NCBI GenBank assembly: GCA_964655115.1 | Contig: CAZZKM010000002.1 | Span: 14,333 to 78,332 of the forward strand | Length of the DNA: 64,000 bases | Direction of reading: 5' to 3' | Source: an uncultured Bifidobacterium sp. | GTDB taxonomy: Bacteria; Actinomycetota; Actinomycetes; S36-B12; UBA5976 | Shown: piece by piece, positions 24,897 through 38,936 of the stretch | Position numbering within the stretch: the first letter of the stretch is position 1 | How the letters are laid out: every line of letters begins with the position of its first letter | Notes under the pieces: model-generated | The model's database searches: none | What the model saw: the letters and a program-made list of their open reading frames with translations, nothing else | Told to the model about the DNA's origin: nothing | Position numbers and translations under genes: made by a program

Positions 24897-24971
24897 TGGT
24901 AGCCCCGACGGGATTTGAACCCGCGTTACCGCCTTGAGAGGGCAGCGTGCTAGGCCGCTGCACTACGGGGC
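24897..24971 (-). tRNA. tRNA-Glu (anticodon CTC), CCA encoded
   Basis: Reverse complement GCCCCGTAGTGCAGCGGCCTAGCACGCTGCCCTCTCAAGGCGGTAACGCGGGTTCAAATCCCGTCGGGGCTACCA. 7-bp acceptor stem, anticodon loop CU-CUC-AA, T-arm GGGTTCAAATCCC. Confidence 0.9.
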
Positions 24972-25027
24972 CAAAGATTTTCATTGCCTTAAAAAAATCT
25001 TAACAGCGAAAAGAAATATGGAAAATT

Positions 25028-26322: not shown

Positions 26323-26394
26323 CTGGGGTACTAGGACTCGAACCTAGACAAGCGGATCCAGAAACCGCTGGGCTGCCAATTACCCCATACCCCA
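26323..26394 (-). tRNA. tRNA-Gln (anticodon CTG), no encoded CCA
   Basis: Reverse complement TGGGGTATGGGGTAATTGGCAGCCCAGCGGTTTCTGGATCCGCTTGTCTAGGTTCGAGTCCTAGTACCCCAG. Anticodon loop UU-CUG-GA. Starts 12 nt after the gltX stop. Confidence 0.9.
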
Positions 26395-26406: not shown

Positions 26407-27885
26407 TTATTTTTTAATCTGCTGTCGAATTCTTGAAAGAACTTTTTCTTTACCTAAAAGCTCCATTGATTCAAATAACGGTGGGGATACTTTTCTGCCA
26501 GTTACAGCAACTCGAATTGCAGTAAATGCAACTCGTGGTTTTAGGCCCATTTGTTGCACAATTACTTTGTTAAATTCATCATGTAATTTTTCAGTTTTAA
26601 ATTCATCAATTGCTTCGATTATTTTTATGGCTTCTTCTAAAACTGGTAAGTTTTCATGAGTTAGTGAACTTTGTGCATCTTCATGATTTACTTTAAAGTC
26701 TTTTTCTTCTACTAGTAAAAAGCTAAGCATGCCTTGGGCTTGGGATAGTTTTTCTAATCTTTCCTGTACTAGTGGCGTGGCTTTTAAAATCATGTCAATT
26801 TGAGAATTTGTTGGAGAATCCATAAAGAATTTTTCTGAAATTAGTTGATTGGTAATTCTTTGAGCCAATTCTTCTGTGCTTAATTTTCTAATCCAGTCCG
26901 CATTAATTGCAGTGCACTTCTTAATATCAAATCTTGCAGGATTTGCACTAACTCTTTTTATATCAAAATTGTCTGCCATTTCTTGCATCGAGAAAAATTC
27001 AATGTCATCACCAAATGACCAACCAAGAAGAGCTAAATAGTTGAGTAATCCTTCGGGTAAAAATCCTTCTTTTCGATACATTAAAAGACTTGATTCAGGA
27101 TCTCTTTTTGAAAGTTTTTTATTGCCTTCACCCATTACATAAGGTAAATGTCCAAAAACTGGAGTAATTCCTGTGCCAACTCCAATTTGTTTAAAAGCTT
27201 CATAAAGAGCAATTTGTCTTGGAGTTGAAGATAACAAATCTTCTCCTCTTAAGACATGCGTTATTTGCATCAAAGCATCATCTGAAGGATTTACCAAAGT
27301 GTAAAGCGGATCACCATTTGCTCTTACTAAAACATAATCTGGAATATGTTCTGGATCAAAACTTAATTCGCCTCTAACTAAGTCATTCCAGATAATAGTT
27401 TTATCCGGCATTCTAAATCTTAAAACTGGAGATCTGCCTTTATTTTCAAAATTAATAACTTGTTCACCAGTTAAATTTCTACAATGCCCGTCATAGCCTG
27501 GAGTTTGACCTTTTTCTTTTTGGGCTTTTCTTCTTTCTTCAACTTCTTCTTGGGAACAATAACAATGATAAGCAAATTTATTTTCTAATAATTTTTTAGC
27601 AATATCTGCATAAATTTCTAATCTTTCACTTTGTCGATACGGTCCAAAAGCACCACCAATCACTGGTCCTTCATCCCAATTAAGTCCAAGCCAATTCAAA
27701 GAATCTATAAGTGCGTTATAGGACTCTTCACTATCTCTTGCAGCATCGGTGTCTTCAATTCGAAAAACAAAAGTTCCTTTGTTGTGTCTTGCAAATGCCC
27801 AATTAAATAAAGCAGTTCGAATCATTCCCACATGTGGATCTCCAGTTGGAGAAGGACAAAATCTAACGCGAATGTTATTTGACAT
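26407..27885 (-). CDS. gltX: Glutamate--tRNA ligase
   Basis: Class I synthetase with a HIGH-type motif (PSPTGDPHVG) and a KMSKS-type motif (KLSKR). The ATG lies 11 nt inside the cimA 3' end. Confidence 0.95.
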   Translation of the reverse strand: MSNNIRVRFCPSPTGDPHVGMIRTALFNWAFARHNKGTFVFRIEDTDAARDSEESYNALIDSLNWLGLNWDEGPVIGGAFGPYRQSERLEIYADIAKKLLENKFAYHCYCSQEEVEERRKAQKEKGQTPGYDGHCRNLTGEQVINFENKGRSPVLRFRMPDKTIIWNDLVRGELSFDPEHIPDYVLVRANGDPLYTLVNPSDDALMQITHVLRGEDLLSSTPRQIALYEAFKQIGVGTGITPVFGHLPYVMGEGNKKLSKRDPESSLLMYRKEGFLPEGLLNYLALLGWSFGDDIEFFSMQEMADNFDIKRVSANPARFDIKKCTAINADWIRKLSTEELAQRITNQLISEKFFMDSPTNSQIDMILKATPLVQERLEKLSQAQGMLSFLLVEEKDFKVNHEDAQSSLTHENLPVLEEAIKIIEAIDEFKTEKLHDEFNKVIVQQMGLKPRVAFTAIRVAVTGRKVSPPLFESMELLGKEKVLSRIRQQIKK

Positions 27886-29473
27886 GAGACTTTAATAATC
27901 CATAAGTGACTGCATCAGAAATTGCATTCCATGAAGCAGCAATAACATTTTCATGCACGCCAACTGTGTCCCATTGATTATTTCCATCACTGGTTTCAAT
28001 GAGCACTCTGGTTACTGCCCCTGTTCCTTTAACTCCTTCAAGGATACGAACTTTATAATCGATTAATTCTAAATTTCCAATTTCTGGATAGATTTTTTCC
28101 AAAGCCGCTCTTAATGCTTTATCTAAAGCGTTAACTGGACCATTACCTTCGGAAGTTTGTAAAATTCTTTGCCCATTTGCCACAACTTTTACAGTTGCAT
28201 CAGTAGCTACTTTTCCATCTTGAGCTTGTTCAACTGTTACTTTCCAAGATTCAACGGTGAAGTATTTGGAGGTGTTTTCTCCTAATTCATCTCTTAAAAG
28301 TAATTCAAATGATGCATCTGCTGCTTCAAATGTGTAGCCACGTGATTCCATGTCTTTAACTTTTTCGACCACGTTGGTTAAAACTTCCTTGTTACCAGAT
28401 AAATCAATTCCTATTTCTTTTCCTTTTAATTCAATAGAAGCTCTGCCTGCCATATCAGAAACTAAAGTTCTCATGTCATTTCCAACTAAATTTGGATCAA
28501 TATGTTGATAAAGCATTGGATCAATTTTCACAGCACTTGCATGTAGTCCTGCTTTATGAGCAAATGCTGAAAAACCAACATATGGTTGATGTTGATTAGG
28601 ATTGATATTTGTAATTTCACTTACCGCGTGAGCAATTCTAGTCATTTCTTTAATAGCATCACTAGGAACAACAACTTTTCCTTTTTTTAATTGCAAATTT
28701 GCAACGACACTAAATAAATTTGCATTTCCACTTCTTTCTCCATAACCATTTGCAGTTCCTTGAACATGTGTTGCTCCAGCATCAACTGCTGACAAAGTAT
28801 TTGCCACAGCACAATTGGTGTCATCGTGGCAATGAATTCCAATACGAGCATTTGTTGCATTTAAAACATCATGTACGACTTGACCTAATTGATCAGGTAG
28901 CATTCCACCGTTTGTGTCACACAAAGCGACAAGTTCTGCACCTGCTTGCATTGCAGTTTTAACAACTTCCAATGCGTAATTTTTGTTGCTATGGTATCCA
29001 TCAAAAAAATGTTCTGCGTCAAGAAAAACAGTTCTACCTTCTGAAACTAAATATGAAATGGTGTCTTGAATCATATTTAAGTTTTCATCCAATGTTGTTT
29101 TCAAAGCAAGTTCAACGTGTCGATCAAAAGATTTTGCAACTAAGGTAATGACTTTGGCATTTGAATCAAGTAATGCTCTTACTAATTGATCATCTTGAGC
29201 TTTGACATTAGGTCTTCTCGTGCTACCAAAAGCTGCTAACGTGGCATTTTTTAGTTTTAATTCAGTTTGAGCTTTAGCAAAAAATTCTGTGTCTTTAGGA
29301 TTTGCTCCAGGCCAACCACCTTCAATAAAACCGACACCTAAAGAATCTAAATGTTTTGCAATATTTAGTTTGTCTTGCACAGAAAGATTTAATCCCTCTT
29401 GTTGAGCACCATCTCTTAAAGTTGTGTCATAAATATGAAATGCAGCAGGATTAAGTGAATTATCTTTACTCAT
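27875..29473 (-). CDS. cimA: Citramalate synthase (LeuA-related, CimA clade)
   Basis: From ATG 29473: MSKDNSLNPAAFHIYDTTLRDGAQQEGLNLSVQDKLNIAKHLDSLGVGFIEGGWPGANPKD. 532 aa with a C-terminal LeuA-dimer-like domain. AAAGGA lies 7 nt upstream. The track's extra 29 aa run across a terminator hairpin. Confidence 0.85.
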   Translation of the reverse strand: MSKDNSLNPAAFHIYDTTLRDGAQQEGLNLSVQDKLNIAKHLDSLGVGFIEGGWPGANPKDTEFFAKAQTELKLKNATLAAFGSTRRPNVKAQDDQLVRALLDSNAKVITLVAKSFDRHVELALKTTLDENLNMIQDTISYLVSEGRTVFLDAEHFFDGYHSNKNYALEVVKTAMQAGAELVALCDTNGGMLPDQLGQVVHDVLNATNARIGIHCHDDTNCAVANTLSAVDAGATHVQGTANGYGERSGNANLFSVVANLQLKKGKVVVPSDAIKEMTRIAHAVSEITNINPNQHQPYVGFSAFAHKAGLHASAVKIDPMLYQHIDPNLVGNDMRTLVSDMAGRASIELKGKEIGIDLSGNKEVLTNVVEKVKDMESRGYTFEAADASFELLLRDELGENTSKYFTVESWKVTVEQAQDGKVATDATVKVVANGQRILQTSEGNGPVNALDKALRAALEKIYPEIGNLELIDYKVRILEGVKGTGAVTRVLIETSDGNNQWDTVGVHENVIAASWNAISDAVTYGLLKSHVK

Positions 29474-29495
29474 AAATAAATCCTTTCTGCCAAAC

Positions 29496-29525
29496 AAAAA
29501 ACCCCTCGCAGTTTTGCGCGAAGGG
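29496..29525 (-). terminator. Rho-independent terminator/attenuator 22 nt upstream of the cimA start
   Basis: Minus strand CCCUUCGC-GCAAAACU-GCGAGGGG (8-bp stem including one G-U) followed by UUUUUUGUUU. Confidence 0.65.
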
Positions 29526-29569
29526 CTGGCACACATTCGTGGGGCATCTGGCCCGCACAACTTGTGCGC

Positions 29570-29596
29570 TTATCTAATAATGATCTGGTATGTCAT
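29570..29596 (-). promoter_or_regulatory. Candidate Ile-rich leader peptide ORF MTYQIIIR*
   Basis: ATG ACA TAC CAG ATC ATT ATT AGA TAA, read codon by codon. The stop abuts the palindrome cgcacaacttgtgcgc (29554-29569). The SD is weak or distant (GAGG 14 nt upstream). Confidence 0.5.
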
Positions 29597-29645
29597 TGGT
29601 TCTAAGTTTGCCTCATCCTCTAACTTAAGATTAAATCTGGGGGTC

Positions 29646-30731
29646 TTAACCTACGTTTAAGGTCCATTGGTGTTCATCTTTTGCTACACCAGTTTGAATA
29701 TCTAATAGAGCATCGCGAAGTTTGGAAGTTAAAGGACCAGTTTCTCCTGAGCCAACTTGGAAAATGCCATCTTTAGATTTAACAGTTCCAATTGGGGTAA
29801 TAACAGCAGCGGTACCGCAAGCAAAGACTTCAGTTATTTCTCCAGATTCGCAACCTTTTTTCCAATCTTCAACACTTATTCTTGCTTCACTTGAAGTTAA
29901 ATTTAAATCTTTTGCCAAAGTTAAAATTGAATCTCTGGTAATTCCTGCAAGTAATGATCCTGTTAATTCTGGAGTGATAATTTTATTTTGTTTTCCATAA
30001 ACAAAATACAAATTCATGCCACCCATTTCTTCAATCCAGCGTCTTTCAATTGCATCTAGCCACACAACTTGATCGCAACCTTCTTGAGCAGCTTTAGCTT
30101 GAGCAATTAATGACGCTGCATAGTTACCAGCAAATTTTGCTTCCCCTGTTCCACCAGGGGCTGCTCTTACATATTCGGTACTTAACCACACAGAAACTGG
30201 TTTTAATCCTTTTGGAAAATAAGCTCCTGCAGGAGAAGCAATTAACATAAATAAATATTTGTTTGCAGGTCTAACACCCAAACCAACTTCTGTGGCAAAC
30301 ATAAATGGTCTTAAATATAAAGATTTTTCTCTATCTTCTGGAACCCAATTTTTATCAACTGAAATTAATTCTTTAATTGCTTGCACAAACAATTCTTCAG
30401 GCATTTCAGGCATAGCCATTCTTTTAGCACTTCTAGCAAATCGTTTCGCATTTTCAAACGGTCTAAAAGTTTTTATGGTGCCATCTTTATGTCGATATGC
30501 TTTTAAACCTTCAAATATTGCTTGCCCATAATGAAGTGTCATATTTGCCGGATCAACTTCTAATTTTGCATAAGGCACAACTCGGGGATTTGTGAATCCT
30601 TTATCTTGTTCCCAATCAATTAACACCATGTGATCGGTGAAATATTTACCAAATCCAGGATTTTCTAAGATTTCTTTTCTTTGATCTTCAGACTTACTTG
30701 AATTATTTTTTGTAACGCTAAAATTTGTCAT
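29646..30731 (-). CDS. ilvE: Branched-chain amino acid aminotransferase
   Basis: 361-aa class IV aminotransferase (long actinobacterial type), [14 protein letters not shown] motif. ATGA overlap with leuB. Confidence 0.95.
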
Positions 30732-31817: not shown

Positions 31818-31924
31818 ATGATTCGTTGCTTACTACTTCATAGCCGCAGCGAGGCCTAACGACTGGCCTCCTCGCTGCGGGAGTTAGTCATTTGCTGGTC
31901 GCAAAAGATTTTTTCCGACTAGCC
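31818..31924 (+). promoter_or_regulatory. leuA leader: LLL leader ORF (31818-31859, MIRCLLLHSRSEA*) plus GC-rich hairpin (31844-31880) and competing downstream pairings
   Basis: Codons ATG ATT CGT TGC TTA CTA CTT CAT AGC CGC AGC GAG GCC TAA. Hairpin CCGCAGCGAGGCC/GGCC(UCC)UCGCUGCGG. Repeated complementary boxes at 31860-68, 31883-89, 31895-901 and 31916-24. Confidence 0.5.
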
Positions 31925-31937
31925 ACTAAAGAGGTAA

Positions 31938-35245
<3,308 letters not shown>

Positions 35246-35249
35246 ATAT

Positions 35250-35405
35250 CTAGCCTACTTTGTTAGATTTTTTCTTTTTACAAGCATTAGAACAATACTT
35301 AACTTCATCCCAGTTCTTAGCCCACGATTTACGCCATGTCATTTTTCGACCACAAGCAACACAGATTTTTTCTAATTTAGGATGTCTAGAAATATGTTGG
35401 CCCAT
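35250..35405 (-). CDS. DUF2256-family small zinc-ribbon protein
   Basis: Not in ORF track (51 aa). Manual translation: MGQHISRHPKLEKICVACGRKMTWRKSWAKNWDEVKYCSNACKKKKSNKVG*. The CxxCGR..WRK.W...WD.V.YCS..C pattern matches DUF2256 as I recall it. The stop lies 4 nt before the serA ATG. Confidence 0.72.
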   Translation of the reverse strand: MGQHISRHPKLEKICVACGRKMTWRKSWAKNWDEVKYCSNACKKKKSNKVG

Positions 35406-35432
35406 TTAATAATTATTTATTAAATGGGCCAA
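35397..35432 (-). terminator. Perfect 16-bp inverted repeat after ilvC that also covers the DUF2256 start codon
   Basis: ttggcccatttaataa-ttat-ttattaaatgggccaa, with exactly reverse-complementary arms. It starts 15 nt after the ilvC stop. The 3' arm contains the ATG at 35405-35403. Followed by CAUAUUUCU, only weakly U-rich. Confidence 0.5.
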
Positions 35433-37018: not shown

Positions 37019-38760
37019 TCGTCATCACTTCGCATCCATTTTGGTGCCATATCGCGAGCAAATTTGATTTCAGAATTACTCATGCCAGCTGCAACCATTG
37101 GCCAAACCATGGCATCTTTATGAACTACGAAATCAATTACTACTGGGGCATCATTTAGTCCAAGTGCTTTTTCGATAACTACATCAACTTCATCTTTGTT
37201 TTCGCAACGCAATCCATGACAACCATACGCATCAGCAAGTTTCACAAAATCTGGAATTCTGTTGGTATGAAGATCTGTATTGGAATATCTATTGTTATAA
37301 AACAAAGATTGCCATTGTCTAACCATGCCCAGTGCATTGTTATTAATCAATCCAACCTTGATTGGAATGTTATTAATTGTGCAAGTGGCTAATTCTTGAT
37401 TAGTCATTTGGAAACAACCATCACCATCAATTGCCCAAACATCTTTATCAGGTGCTCCAACTTTTGCACCCATTGCAGCAGGAATTGCATAACCCATAGT
37501 TCCTAAACCACCTGAGTTAAGCCAAGTTCCTGGATTTTCATATTTAATAAATTGAGCTGCCCACATTTGATGTTGACCAACACCTGCTGCATATAAAGCA
37601 TCAGGTCCTGTGATTTCACCAATTCTTTGAATTACATATTGAGGGGAAAGAGAACCATCATGTGGTTCGTCATATCCAAGTGGATATTCATTTCTTAATC
37701 TATTTAAATTGGCCCACCATGCCTCATAATTCCCAACTCTTCCTGCTTTATGTTCATCTTTCAAAGCAGCAATAAGTTCAATCATGGTTTCTTTGGCATC
37801 ACCCACAATTGGCACGTGAGCAAATCTATTTTTACCAATTTCTGCAGGATCTATATCAATATGAATTACATCTGCTTCTGGAGCAAATGATGAAAGTTGA
37901 CCAGTGACTCGATCATCAAATCTTGTTCCAATAGCAATTAATAAATCACTTTGTTGTAAAGATCCAACTGCAGCAACTGTGCCATGCATTCCAGGCATTC
38001 CTAAATGTTGTGGATGAGAATCTGGAAATGCTCCTCTAGCCATCAATGTTGTGACAACAGGAATTTGAGTTAGCTCTGCTAATTGGAAAAGTTCTTTATT
38101 TGCCTCAGATTTAATAACACCTCCACCAATGTAAAGAACTGGCTTTTTAGCATTAACAATTCTTTCGGCAGCTTCCTTGACTCTTTTAGCATTTGGTTTA
38201 GCAGTTGGATGATAACCAGGTAAATTCATAACTGGTGGCCAATTAAATTGAGTTTTTGCATTTAGGGCATCTTTAGAAATATCAACTAAAACAGGTCCTG
38301 GTCTTCCAGTTGAAGCAATGTGAAATGCTTCTGCAATTGCTCTTGGAATGTCATCTGCTTTGGTAACTAAATAATTATGTTTTGTAATTGGAAAAGTAAT
38401 TCCTCTAATATCTGCTTCTTGAAATGCATCAGTACCAATTGCATTTGATGGAACTTGTCCAGTGATTGCAACCATAGGAACAGAATCCATGTGTGCATCA
38501 GCTATTGGTGTTACCAGATTGGTTGCTCCTGGTCCACTTGTTGCCATACAAACTCCAACGCGACCAGTTGCAAGTGCATAACCTTCAGCAGCATGACCAG
38601 CACCTTGTTCATGTCTAACTAAAATGTGGCGTAATTTTTTTGAATCCATCAATGGATCGTATGCAGGAAGAATTGCTCCGCCAGGAATTCCAAAGACTGT
38701 ATCTACACCTGCAAATTCCAAAGATTGAACTAAACTTTGCGCACCGGTGATCTCGGTCAT
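37015..38760 (-). CDS. ilvB: Acetolactate synthase large subunit
   Basis: 581-aa ThDP enzyme. [24 protein letters not shown]-terminus and ThDP motif [16 protein letters not shown]...DGDGCFQM. Confidence 0.96.
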
Positions 38761-38837
38761 GAATTATGTTTCCTTTAAATCGGGGAAGAATTCTTTTTAA
38801 GGAATCCTTCAATTGTTTCAGTAGCCTTTAGCCCACT

Positions 38838-38873
38838 AAAAAACCCCCCGGCCTTTTTTAGGCAAACGGAGGG
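38838..38873 (-). terminator. Rho-independent terminator/attenuator in the ilvB leader
   Basis: Minus strand CCCUCCG-UUU-GCC-UAAAAAA-GGC-CGGGGGG (7+3 bp with a 3-nt bulge) followed by UUUUUU. It lies about 77 nt upstream of the ilvB ATG. Confidence 0.65.
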
Positions 38874-38894
38874 TGGCGCGTGGGCTAATTCTTG

Positions 38895-38936
38895 CTAGCC
38901 GACGCGCTCGCTAACTACCACGAGTGCATTTCTCAT
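38895..38936 (-). promoter_or_regulatory. Candidate Val/Leu-rich leader peptide ORF MRNALVVVSERVG*
   Basis: ATG AGA AAT GCA CTC GTG GTA GTT AGC GAG CGC GTC GGC TAG, read codon by codon. Its 3' end is the 5' arm of the hairpin at 38876-38907 (GCGCGUCGGCUA/UAGCCCACGCGC, 11 of 12 paired). Confidence 0.55.

What the first reader, a model, noticed from the sequence alone, without database searches (positions are those of the whole stretch)
29474..29645. Ile-Ile-Ile leader peptide with terminator/antiterminator in front of citramalate synthase (cimA)
On the minus strand, between the ilvE stop (29646) and the cimA ATG (29473), there is an 8-codon ORF: ATG ACA TAC CAG ATC ATT ATT AGA TAA = MTYQIIIR (29596 to 29570).
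- Its stop codon abuts a 16-nt perfect palindrome (GCGCACAAGUUGUGCG, 29569-29554).
- About 30 nt further lies CCCUUCGC-N8-GCGAGGGG followed by UUUUUUGUUU (29525-29496). That is only ~22 nt before the cimA ATG, with an AAAGGA SD in between.
- The 3' arm of the first hairpin (GUUGUGCG, 29561-29554) can instead pair at 7 of 8 positions with CGCAAAAC (29518-29511), which spans the terminator loop and the base of its 5' arm. This is the 1:2 / 2:3 / 3:4 layout of classical attenuation.

CimA commits pyruvate and acetyl-CoA to the threonine-independent route to 2-oxobutyrate and isoleucine, so three Ile codons are the matching sensor. Leader-peptide attenuators are known for actinobacterial ilvB, leuA and trp. 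I am not aware of one described for cimA. The region is GC-rich relative to its surroundings, and the ORF track hides it inside a spurious 29-aa N-terminal extension of cimA.
Basis: partly seen in the sequence, partly recalled or inferred. Interest (0 to 1): 0.72.

Follow-up and report, generated by a model that had tools for sequence, protein, structure and literature searches.

The report
Isoleucine-sensing leader before citramalate synthase
A tiny eight-codon gene with three isoleucine codons, a hairpin and a transcription stop signal sits in front of the citramalate synthase gene and recurs in many actinobacteria, so it most likely turns this isoleucine-pathway gene up when isoleucine runs short; it is a sister copy of the known ilvB leader, not a new kind of switch.

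Summary
The mini-ORF MTYQIIIR (29596-29570, minus strand), a hairpin straight after its stop codon and a strong intrinsic terminator 22 nt before the cimA ATG are all real.

**Conservation.** The same unit lies just upstream of cimA in 49 of 160 related loci, with locus G+C from 36% to 73%. It is present whatever gene lies upstream. Each aligned copy has a start codon, an 8-15 codon frame, usually two or three Ile codons, a GCGC-based hairpin (P1) and a covarying terminator. A -10-like hexamer lies 6-10 nt before the start codon, which suggests a leaderless leader ORF.

**Codon choice.** High-GC leaders use the rare AUU for 58% of Ile codons, against 1.8% in the adjacent cimA.

**Relationship.** A covariance model built from cimA leaders hits only one other place in the window: the ilvB leader (MRNALVVVSERVG). 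The element is therefore an Ile-specific paralogue of the actinobacterial ilvB attenuator.

**What failed.** No conserved or thermodynamically competitive antiterminator was found.

**Open.** The ribosome-position geometry is conserved, but how readthrough is achieved is unresolved. I found no description of a cimA leader in Rfam or in the paper library.

**Verdict:** new member of a known kind.

The parts
29605..29610 (-). -10-like hexamer CAAACT, 8 nt upstream of the mini-ORF ATG; the inferred promoter of a leaderless or near-leaderless leader transcript
   Evidence: A hexamer with A at position 2 and T at position 6 ends 6-10 nt before the start codon in 19 of 22 cimA leaders. In the high-GC copies it is usually preceded by TGn (TGGCAGACT, TGCCACAAT, TGTCACACT). 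There is no SD before the mini-ORF. Streptomyces and Corynebacterium leader peptides are reported as leaderless. The transcription start is not mapped here.
29570..29596 (-). Leader mini-ORF ATG ACA TAC CAG ATC ATT ATT AGA TAA = MTYQIIIR*
   Evidence: All 39 aligned cimA copies begin with ATG, GTG or TTG and have an in-frame stop after 8-15 codons. Chance expectation is 0.0007.
29576..29584 (-). Three consecutive Ile codons, AUC AUU AUU; the presumed sensing codons
   Evidence: II or III is present in 37 of the 39 aligned cimA leaders. The other two read V-I-T. The last Ile codon starts 8-11 nt before the base of P1 in all 21 diverse leaders measured. High-GC leaders use AUU for 22 of 38 Ile codons, against 9 of 507 in the adjacent cimA CDS.
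29529..29569 (-). Hairpin P1 (41 nt): basal stem GCGCACA/UGUGUGC, apical stems UUGUG/CACGA and GGGC/GCCC. It starts immediately after the stop codon.
   Evidence: MFE structure. The P1 segment has z -4.1 in the window and z below -2 in all 21 homologues, mean -3.9, with divergent interiors. The basal GC/CG pairs are invariant in 40 sequences. Four P1 pairs change on both sides among 7 close relatives.
29554..29568 (-).
   Evidence: Not in the MFE. 74% of cells paired, no covariation, broken in L004, L081 and L082.
29492..29527 (-). Intrinsic terminator: 11-bp stem AGCCCUUCGCG/UGCGAGGGGUU (29527-29500), with the run U6-G-U3 extending to 29492
   Evidence: Across 40 sequences, 97% of cells are paired against at most 70% in slid controls, and 5 terminator pairs change on both sides. 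The P1-to-terminator spacer is 0-3 nt in all 21 homologues.
29481..29486 (-). AAAGGA Shine-Dalgarno sequence of cimA
   Evidence: 7 nt before the ATG at 29473.
27875..29473 (-). cimA, citramalate synthase, 532 aa; the regulated gene. Its end overlaps the gltX start (27885).
   Evidence: TIGR00977, 680 bits against a cutoff of 450. ORF table.
38837..38936 (-). Paralogous ilvB leader: MRNALVVVSERVG*, a GCGC-based hairpin, and the terminator CCCUCCG..CGGGGGG-U6
   Evidence: It is the only other hit of the cimA-leader covariance model in the 64-kb window: 29.2 bits, E 1.5e-5, full length.

Best explanation
This is a ribosome-mediated (leader-peptide) transcription attenuator of cimA that senses charged tRNA-Ile. 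It is a paralogue of the actinobacterial ilvB leader.

**Proposed sequence of events**
1. A promoter in the ilvE-cimA spacer (-10 CAAACT) starts a transcript at or a few nucleotides before the AUG of an 8-codon ORF.
2. The ORF is followed at once by hairpin P1 and, 1 nt later, by a strong intrinsic terminator. By default the roughly 100-nt leader RNA ends there, and cimA (with the overlapping gltX) stays low.
3. The Ile codons sit 8-11 nt before P1. A ribosome waiting for Ile-tRNA parks with its leading edge at the foot of an intact P1.
4. A ribosome that is not delayed runs on to the stop codon and unwinds the basal half of P1.
5. In the homologous ilvB leaders, the hairpin that forms when the ribosome stalls is the anti-terminator. 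By analogy, the stalled state (P1 intact) should give readthrough and more CimA when Ile is scarce.

**Shown here:** the parts, their conservation, their geometry, their codon bias and their paralogy with the ilvB leader.

**Inferred:** the promoter and leaderless start, the sign of the response, and how an intact P1 interferes with the terminator. No base-paired antiterminator is visible. The constant 0-3 nt abutment of P1 and the terminator suggests interference at the junction, as in the 'fast attenuator' proposed for C. glutamicum ilvBNC.
For: - **Anatomy:** confirmed.
- **Distribution:** covariance model R1 finds a full-length copy just upstream of cimA, on the cimA strand, in 49 of 160 cimA loci. 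Locus G+C ranges from 0.36 to 0.73.
- **Independent of the upstream gene:** the unit is kept where the upstream gene is not ilvE (L005, L006) and where it is divergently oriented (L024). It is therefore not merely the terminator of ilvE.
- **ORF properties:** all 39 aligned cimA copies have a start codon and an in-frame stop. The flanking residues vary, while II or III is kept in 37 of 39.
- **Codon bias:** rare AUU makes up 58% of leader Ile codons against 1.8% in the adjacent cimA CDS of high-GC loci.
- **Structure:** P1 has z below -2 in 21 of 21 homologues, with different sequences. The terminator covaries.
- **Geometry:** the Ile-to-P1 distance (8-11 nt) and the P1-to-terminator spacing (0-3 nt) are constant.
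- **Paralogy:** R1 hits the window's ilvB leader at E 1.5e-5 and nothing else in the window. The window's ilvB peptide MRNALVVVSERVG, the cimA long form MFYGLLIIGRRAG and S. lividans IlvL MRTRILVLGKRVG share one pattern.
- **Experimental precedent in the ilvB relatives:** in M. tuberculosis ilvB1, changing LVVI to AAAA abolishes induction, and a transcript of about 120 nt ends in the leader. Terminator mutations in C. glutamicum raise expression 7-8 fold.
- **Matching codon specificities:** the same window carries a V-rich leader for ilvB, an L-rich leader for leuA and an I-rich leader for cimA.
Against: - No antiterminator was found. Masking the footprint of a ribosome stalled at the Ile codons leaves all terminator pairs in the MFE in all 16 homologues tested.
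- Duplex energies between P1 and either terminator arm are no better than shuffles.
- Pairing between the ORF and the P1/terminator junction is lineage-specific, with a mean z of -0.15.
- From sequence alone, the sign of the response is not established.
- Two homologues keep only one Ile codon (V-I-T).
- In S. coelicolor, mutating the ilvB leader codons reportedly had no effect on regulation (cited).
- There is no transcription-start, 3'-end or expression data for this organism or any carrier.
- Many of the 49 copies come from closely related Streptosporangiales, so they are not independent observations.
Confidence: 0.7

Rival explanations
1. The hairpin and U-run are simply the terminator of the leuB-ilvE operon. 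The mini-ORF is a chance reading frame, and cimA is transcribed from a promoter of its own overlapping or downstream of the terminator.
For: The terminator lies 120 nt after the ilvE stop and is a canonical, strong one. It very probably does also end ilvE transcripts. Transcripts read through from ilvE would carry the mini-ORF without an SD.
Against: - The whole unit (ORF, P1 and terminator) goes with cimA where ilvE is absent upstream (L005, L006) or where the neighbouring gene is divergent (L024).
- It is missing where ilvE and cimA overlap.
- Only 22 nt, holding the SD, separate the U-run from the cimA ATG, which leaves no room for a promoter.
- The chance of such an ORF is 0.0007.
- Start codon, frame and Ile codons are conserved.
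Confidence: 0.04
2. It is a leader-ORF attenuator, but it reports general translation capacity or several amino acids (stringent or ppGpp-type signals) rather than Ile specifically. The Ile codons would be inherited from the I/L/V-rich ilvB-type ancestor.
For: - The long forms read LLII or LVII, mixing branched-chain codons.
- S. coelicolor ilvB leader codon mutants kept their regulation.
- No antiterminator was found that would translate a stall into readthrough.
Against: - The window's lineage has purified the run to Q-I-I-I.
- Every leader keeps at least one AUU, even at 70% G+C where AUU is 1.8% of Ile codons.
- The ilvB leader in the same genome has VVV and the leuA leader has LLL, so codon identity tracks the pathway.
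- The M. tuberculosis codon mutant lost induction.
Confidence: 0.13
3. The conserved AUCAUUA, the P1 base and the terminator form an RNA element bound by a protein or small ligand (riboswitch- or RNA-binding-protein-type attenuation). The ORF would be incidental.
For: - There is nucleotide-level conservation of (A/G)UCAUUA and of the invariant GCGC base of P1 across 36-73% G+C.
- In many homologues the Ile codons sit in the loop of a small upstream hairpin, P0.
Against: - Start codon, reading frame and stop are kept in 39 of 39 cimA copies, while the other codons drift.
- The interior of P1 is not conserved in sequence, so there is no aptamer-like core.
- No Rfam family matches.
- The ilvB-II relative showed no structural change on adding the one ligand tested (ppGpp) and behaves as a uORF.
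Confidence: 0.06
4. The terminated leader transcript of about 100 nt is itself the product: a trans-acting small RNA (as with rnTrpL of Sinorhizobium), or an RNA encoding a functional micro-peptide.
For: Attenuator-derived small RNAs with trans functions exist (paper listed). The leader would be abundant under Ile-replete conditions.
Against: The peptide sequence is not conserved apart from Ile. No target complementarity was examined or suggested. This would add to cis attenuation rather than replace it.
Confidence: 0.04

Closest known systems
Actinobacterial ilvB / ilvBNC leader-peptide attenuators (IlvL): M. tuberculosis ilvB1 uORF 'LVVI' (PMC13236596), C. glutamicum ilvBNC / ilvB-II motif (PMC10272879, PMC11857589), Streptomyces IlvL MRTRILVLGKRVG (PMC8079986), and the comparative prediction in PMC1262725
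   Same: - A leaderless short ORF with a run of branched-chain codons.
- A hairpin straight after or around the end of the ORF, then a G+C-rich intrinsic terminator with a U-run.
- The cimA long form has the same 13-codon pattern M-x3-[ILV]4-G/S-x-R-A/V-G-stop.
- The cimA-leader covariance model detects the window's own ilvB leader at E 1.5e-5.
- Antiterminator and terminator are adjacent or barely overlapping, as in the C. glutamicum 'fast attenuator'.
   Different: - It sits in front of cimA, not ilvB.
- The codon run is Ile only: III in this window, II in most copies.
- In about half of the lineages, including this window, the ORF is cut to 8 codons by a stop placed 2-4 nt before the hairpin, instead of ending in the hairpin loop.
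- No mutually exclusive antiterminator/terminator pair could be predicted here.
Classical enterobacterial attenuators (trp, his, leu, ilvGMEDA, ilvBN)
   Same: A leader peptide rich in the cognate amino acid, a rare codon at the sensing position (as reported for the E. coli leu leader; recalled, not checked here), and an intrinsic terminator before the first structural gene.
   Different: - Those have an SD-led leader ORF and four segments, with a clear 2:3 antiterminator that overlaps the terminator.
- Here the ORF appears leaderless, there are two (or three) abutting hairpins, and no 2:3 pairing survives testing.
LEU element / leuA leader of Actinobacteria (PMC1262725) and S. lividans LeuL1
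   Same: A short leaderless ORF with a run of the cognate codon ahead of an isopropylmalate/citramalate synthase family gene. The window's own leuA has MIRCLLLHSRSEA followed by a long hairpin.
   Different: - It has a different RNA structure and no typical terminator.
- The cimA-leader model does not hit it.
- It is Leu-specific rather than Ile-specific.
Mycobacterial poly-Cys leaderless sORF attenuators (bioRxiv 10.1101/834739)
   Same: A leaderless short ORF whose cognate codons sense amino-acid supply for a downstream biosynthetic operon in Actinobacteria.
   Different: PMC13236596 describes those genes as regulated by translation attenuation, and the 2005 comparison saw no terminator hairpins upstream of the cys operons. 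Here a canonical terminator is the most conserved part.

Membership tests
Leader-peptide (ribosome-mediated) transcription attenuator | A short translatable ORF in the 5' leader of the regulated gene | tested here: met
   8 codons with ATG and TAA. All 39 aligned cimA copies have a start codon and an in-frame stop. Translation itself is not shown.
Leader-peptide (ribosome-mediated) transcription attenuator | A run of codons for the amino acid made by the regulated pathway, conserved in relatives | tested here: met
   III in the window; II or III in 37 of 39 cimA leaders. Rare AUU is enriched, 58% against 1.8%. cimA is assigned by TIGR00977.
Leader-peptide (ribosome-mediated) transcription attenuator | An intrinsic terminator between the leader ORF and the structural gene | tested here: met
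   11-bp stem plus U6GU3. 97% of cells paired, and 5 pairs with compensatory changes across 40 sequences.
Leader-peptide (ribosome-mediated) transcription attenuator | An antiterminator structure mutually exclusive with the terminator and favoured when the ribosome stalls | tested here: not met
The terminator survives every footprint mask in 16 homologues. P1-versus-arm duplexes equal shuffles. A non-base-pairing or junction effect of P1 is not excluded.
Leader-peptide (ribosome-mediated) transcription attenuator | Readthrough rises when the cognate charged tRNA is limiting | not testable with these tools
   This needs Term-seq or reporter assays under Ile limitation.
Actinobacterial ilvB leader (IlvL / ilvB-II-type) family | Shared sequence and structure: a leaderless ORF, a GCGC-based hairpin, and a CCyyyC..GGGG terminator | tested here: met
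   R1, built only from cimA leaders, hits the window's ilvB leader full length at 29.2 bits, E 1.5e-5. It is the sole other hit in 128 kb of searched strands. The peptide pattern is shared with S. lividans IlvL.
Actinobacterial ilvB leader (IlvL / ilvB-II-type) family | Located in the 5' leader of ilvB (ilvBNC) | tested here: not met
   It lies before cimA in all 49 loci. The window has a separate ilvB leader at 38936-38837. It is therefore a paralogue, not a member in the strict sense.
Any Rfam family (riboswitch, T-box, known leaders) | A covariance-model match | tested here: not met
   No relevant match at E up to 10 in 29300-29800. Nothing but two tRNAs at gathering score in the whole window.

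The most novel reading that the evidence does not exclude
This family of attenuators, the cimA leader and its ilvB sisters, works without a base-paired antiterminator. The ribosome only decides whether hairpin P1 stands or is unwound. An intact P1, which abuts the terminator with 0-3 nt between them and has a stalled ribosome at its foot, would block completion of the terminator stem. It could do so sterically or by stacking at the RNA polymerase exit channel, or by bringing the ribosome into contact with the polymerase. That would be a distinct way of coupling codon sensing to intrinsic termination.
Probability: 0.2. Interest if true: 0.7.

Novelty: new member of a known kind. Interest (0 to 1): 0.5.

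Why it matters
- **Pathway control.** It would give the threonine-independent (citramalate) route to isoleucine its own end-product sensor at the RNA level, conserved from streamlined freshwater actinobacteria (36% G+C) to Streptosporangiales (about 70% G+C).
- **Evolution.** A regulatory leader appears to have been duplicated from ilvB and retuned, from V/L/I codons to pure Ile and with rare AUU, so that one genome runs separate V-, L- and I-specific leaders.
- **Annotation.** It corrects the cimA start and adds an 8-codon ORF that gene callers miss.
- **Mechanism.** The constant ribosome-to-hairpin-to-terminator geometry without a visible antiterminator bears on an open question about how actinobacterial ilv-type attenuators work.
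- **Essential gene.** gltX overlaps the end of cimA in this window, so the element may also gate an essential tRNA synthetase.

Tried and rejected
1. **Rfam.** Searched the region at E up to 10 and the whole window at gathering score. Nothing relevant.
Rejected in favour of the 41-nt P1.
It is not in the MFE. 68.8% of cells are paired, 238 of 500 shuffles do as well, and the register slid by -2 does better.
4. **My own alternative,** UUGUGCGGG with UUCGCGCAA (9 bp, 3 of them G-U). I noted it by eye. It competes with the stable apical part of P1 and never appears in constrained folds.
5. **A freed P1 3' arm pairing with the top of the terminator 5' arm on truncated transcripts.** This gives only a weak 5-bp hairpin. 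The paired probability of the 5' arm rises from 0.28 to about 0.37 in the window, is inconsistent across homologues, and would act in the wrong state.
6. **Complementarity between P1 and either terminator arm, against shuffles.** No signal.
7. **Pairing of ORF codons 4-6 with the P1/terminator junction** (GGUCUGC:GCAGACC). This is real in Streptosporangiales (z about -2.6) but absent elsewhere, and it would be covered by a stalled ribosome.
8. **A relocated leader in acI genomes where ilvE and cimA overlap.** None found within 2-3 kb upstream.
9. **Literature searches** for cimA or citramalate synthase with leader peptide, uORF or attenuation. Nothing found. One cited paper (PMC10122055) is not held.

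Full report
**What is in the sequence**

On the minus strand the gene order is leuB (31759-30728), ilvE (30731-29646), a 172-nt spacer, cimA (29473-27875; TIGR00977, 680 bits) and gltX (27885-26407).

The spacer holds the following features:
- ATG ACA TAC CAG ATC ATT ATT AGA TAA, which translates to MTYQIIIR* (29596-29570).
- A hairpin directly after the stop codon.
- An 11-bp G+C-rich stem followed by U6GU3 (29527-29492). Both the terminator scan and RNAfold report it.
- AAAGGA, then the cimA ATG at 29473.

The spacer is a G+C island, 0.53 against about 0.35 in the flanks. It folds better than shuffles, z -3.4. A short ATG-started ORF with three consecutive Ile codons appears in 0.07% of shuffled spacers. 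Only three places in the whole window, both strands, hold such a mini-ORF.

**Corrections to the observation**

The "16-nt perfect palindrome" is a 6-bp stem with a 3-nt loop. It lies inside a larger 41-nt hairpin, P1 (29569-29529), with basal stem GCGCACA/UGUGUGC. P1 is the MFE structure.

I tested both on seven close relatives:
- P1 plus the terminator pairs in 88.9% of cells, against at most 64% for slid registers. Four P1 pairs change on both sides.
- The small hairpin is broken in three of the seven and shows no covariation.
- That structure was derived from the window's own fold, which biases the count somewhat in its favour.

**Conservation**

The organism is a 36% G+C actinobacterium near the Nanopelagicales. 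Its closest record is L001, with a 99% identical CimA. I fetched 160 cimA loci from genomes and metagenomes.

In the acI/Planktophila type, ilvE and cimA overlap. There is no spacer and no element. Wherever cimA has its own upstream region, the same unit is present.

A covariance model (R1) built from 17 diverse leaders finds a full-length copy on the cimA strand, just upstream of cimA, in 49 loci with G+C from 0.36 to 0.73.

The unit goes with cimA whatever the upstream gene:
- ilvE in the window, L001-L004 and L007-L010.
- Unrelated same-strand genes in L005 and L006, where tblastn finds no ilvE.
- A gene on the opposite strand in L024.

This excludes the reading that it is merely the terminator of ilvE.

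**The ORF behaves like a sensing leader**

All 40 aligned sequences (39 cimA leaders and the window's ilvB leader) begin with ATG, GTG or TTG and reach an in-frame stop. There are two discrete forms:
- **Short form, 8-9 codons:** MTYQIIIR, MKYQIIIR, MTNQIIIS, MFNQIIIS, MSQQIIIS, MKNQEIIS, MTVRQIIF, MAVRQIIP, MHSPLIIS, MYRTLIIS, MYSIVIIT, MQSSRVIID, and also MLGHVITQ and MSTAVITP.
- **Long form, 13-15 codons:** MFYGLLIIGRRAG and variants in Streptosporangiales, MRHSLVIIGWRAG, and MWTRPIISRGASAQG.

Only the Ile position is kept; the other residues drift.

In high-GC loci the adjacent cimA uses AUU for 9 of 507 Ile codons (1.8%). The leaders use AUU for 22 of 38 (58%), and each has at least one. 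This is what selection for a slowly decoded sensing codon would give.

No Shine-Dalgarno sequence precedes the mini-ORF. Instead a -10-like hexamer ends 6-10 nt before the start codon in 19 of 22 cimA leaders. It is CAAACT in the window. In high-GC copies it reads TGGCAGACT, TGCCACAAT or TGTCACACT, that is, with an extended -10 TGn. The S. lividans leader peptides are reported as leaderless, and the C. glutamicum ilvBNC transcript is reported to start one nucleotide before the leader start codon. A leaderless or near-leaderless start is therefore the likely reading. It is not mapped.

**RNA structure**

P1 exists in every homologue, with widely different interior sequences. All 21 measured have z below -2, with a mean of -3.9. 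Its base is an invariant GC/CG.

The terminator pairs in 97% of cells across 40 sequences, against at most 70% for slid controls. Five of its pairs show compensatory changes.

The geometry is constant:
- The last Ile codon starts 8-11 nt before the base of P1.
- P1 and the terminator are separated by 0-3 nt.
- The stop codon lies either 2-4 nt before P1 (short form) or 10-17 nt inside it (long form).

**Relationship to the ilvB leader**

Upstream of ilvB in the same window (ATG at 38760) lies MRNALVVVSERVG*, followed by a GCGC-based hairpin and the terminator CCCUCCG..CGGGGGG-U6.

R1 was built only from cimA leaders. Across the 64-kb window it hits just two places: the cimA leader, and this ilvB leader at full length, 29.2 bits, E 1.5e-5.

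The cimA long form, the window's IlvL and S. lividans IlvL (MRTRILVLGKRVG) share the pattern M-x3-[ILV]4-(G/S)-x-R-(A/V)-G-stop. The cimA leader is therefore best seen as a paralogue of the actinobacterial ilvB leader, retuned to Ile. In the window's lineage it has been truncated by a stop codon at the foot of P1.

The window also carries a Leu leader before leuA: MIRCLLLHSRSEA, followed by a long hairpin. One genome therefore has V-, L- and I-specific leaders for ilvB, leuA and cimA.

**Mechanism: what is and is not supported**

- Its 2:3 helix pairs in 68.8% of cells. 238 of 500 shuffles do as well, and a slid register does better.
- Masking the footprint of a ribosome with an Ile codon in the A site leaves every terminator pair in the MFE in all 16 homologues tested.
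- Duplex energies between P1 and either terminator arm equal those of shuffles.

Two further candidates were also rejected:
- On transcripts cut before the terminator 3' arm, only a weak, inconsistent 5-bp hairpin appears.
- A pairing of ORF codons 4-6 with the P1/terminator junction exists only in Streptosporangiales, and a stalled ribosome would cover it.

What the conserved geometry does say is this. A ribosome waiting at the Ile codons stands at the foot of an intact P1. A ribosome that proceeds to the stop codon unwinds P1.

The same logic has been proposed, with supporting experiments, for M. tuberculosis ilvB1. There a stalled ribosome lets the anti-terminator form, and a ribosome at the stop codon masks it. 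Changing LVVI to AAAA abolishes induction, and a transcript of about 120 nt ends in the leader.

In C. glutamicum ilvBNC the antiterminator and terminator overlap by only a boundary trinucleotide, described as a "fast attenuator". Terminator mutations there raise expression 7-8 fold.

By homology I take the P1-intact, stalled state to be the readthrough state. How P1 interferes with a terminator that it merely abuts is not shown. Interference at the junction is the leading idea.

**Novelty**

Rfam has no family for it. The 2005 comparative study of Actinobacteria reported ilvB, trp, cys and leuA elements and stated that nothing was found for other pathways. The S. lividans catalogue lists eight leader peptides, none of them for cimA. 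Full-text searches pairing cimA or citramalate synthase with leader peptide, uORF or attenuation found nothing relevant.

I cannot exclude a description in a paper outside the library. It is a new member of a known kind: a new target gene, a new codon specificity and a shortened ORF, but the same principle and ancestry as the ilvB leader.

**Verdict**

The antiterminator detail is not supported. Interest is moderate at 0.5. It is a clean, conserved and apparently undescribed Ile attenuator with a neat evolutionary story and an open mechanistic question, but it is not a new principle.

Noticed in passing
window 38837-38936 (-): ilvB leader: the ORF MRNALVVVSERVG*, a GCGC-based hairpin and the terminator CCCUCCG..CGGGGGG-U6, about 75 nt before the ilvB ATG (38760). 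With a few downstream bases included, the MFE instead pairs UAGCCCAC with GUGGGCUA around the terminator.
   Followed up: partly
window 31818-31946 (+): leuA leader: MIRCLLLHSRSEA* (UUA CUA CUU), followed by the long hairpin CCGCAGCGAGGCC..GGCCUCCUCGCUGCGG. The region has z -5.2 and no clean U-run directly after the hairpin. It resembles the LEU-element type of leuA leader. Neither Rfam nor the cimA-leader model hits it.
   Followed up: partly
window 27875-27885 (-): The cimA stop and the gltX start overlap by 11 nt. The Ile attenuator would therefore also gate glutamyl-tRNA synthetase unless a promoter lies inside cimA.
   Followed up: no
window 35397-35432: A 36-nt A+T-rich perfect palindrome (TTGGCCCATTTAATAAATAATTATTAAATGGGCCAA) lies between ilvC and serA. 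It is flagged as terminator-like. It also produces a spurious plus-strand mini-ORF, MLAHLIIIY.
   Followed up: no
L016, L024, L029, L041 and other Streptosporangiales loci, about 25-55 nt upstream of the -10 (e.g. L029 2815-2845): A conserved block, GTGAGATCGATGTGCCAGATGGTGAAT, lies upstream of the TGGCAGACT -10. A related ATGRTGAGAC occurs in L010, L031 and L058. It may be a transcription-factor site acting on the same promoter.
   Followed up: no
L012-L080 and L088-L160 (acI / Planktophila type), e.g. L020 1-4575: The upstream ORF, leuB, ilvE and cimA are packed without spacers. The ilvE stop overlaps the cimA start, and there is no leader within 2-3 kb upstream. cimA there is presumably controlled from further upstream.
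   Followed up: partly
L016, L024, L029, L087 leaders (e.g. L029 2879-2885 with 2929-2935): ORF codons 4-6 (GGUCUGC) can pair with GCAGACC at the P1/terminator junction, z about -2.6. This would enclose P1 and take the first 5 nt of the terminator. It is lineage-specific. In many high-GC leaders the Ile codons also sit in the loop of a small hairpin, P0, that abuts P1.
   Followed up: partly
L078 2880-3010: This ilvE-cimA spacer holds no leader. It holds three tandem copies of GGCCGAGCCCGCGGCCTGACCCCCGCCCC.
   Followed up: no
window 24900-24972 and 26323-26394 (-): Two tRNA genes flank the lactate-dehydrogenase-like ORF downstream of gltX. They are the only Rfam gathering-score hits in the window.
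   Followed up: no
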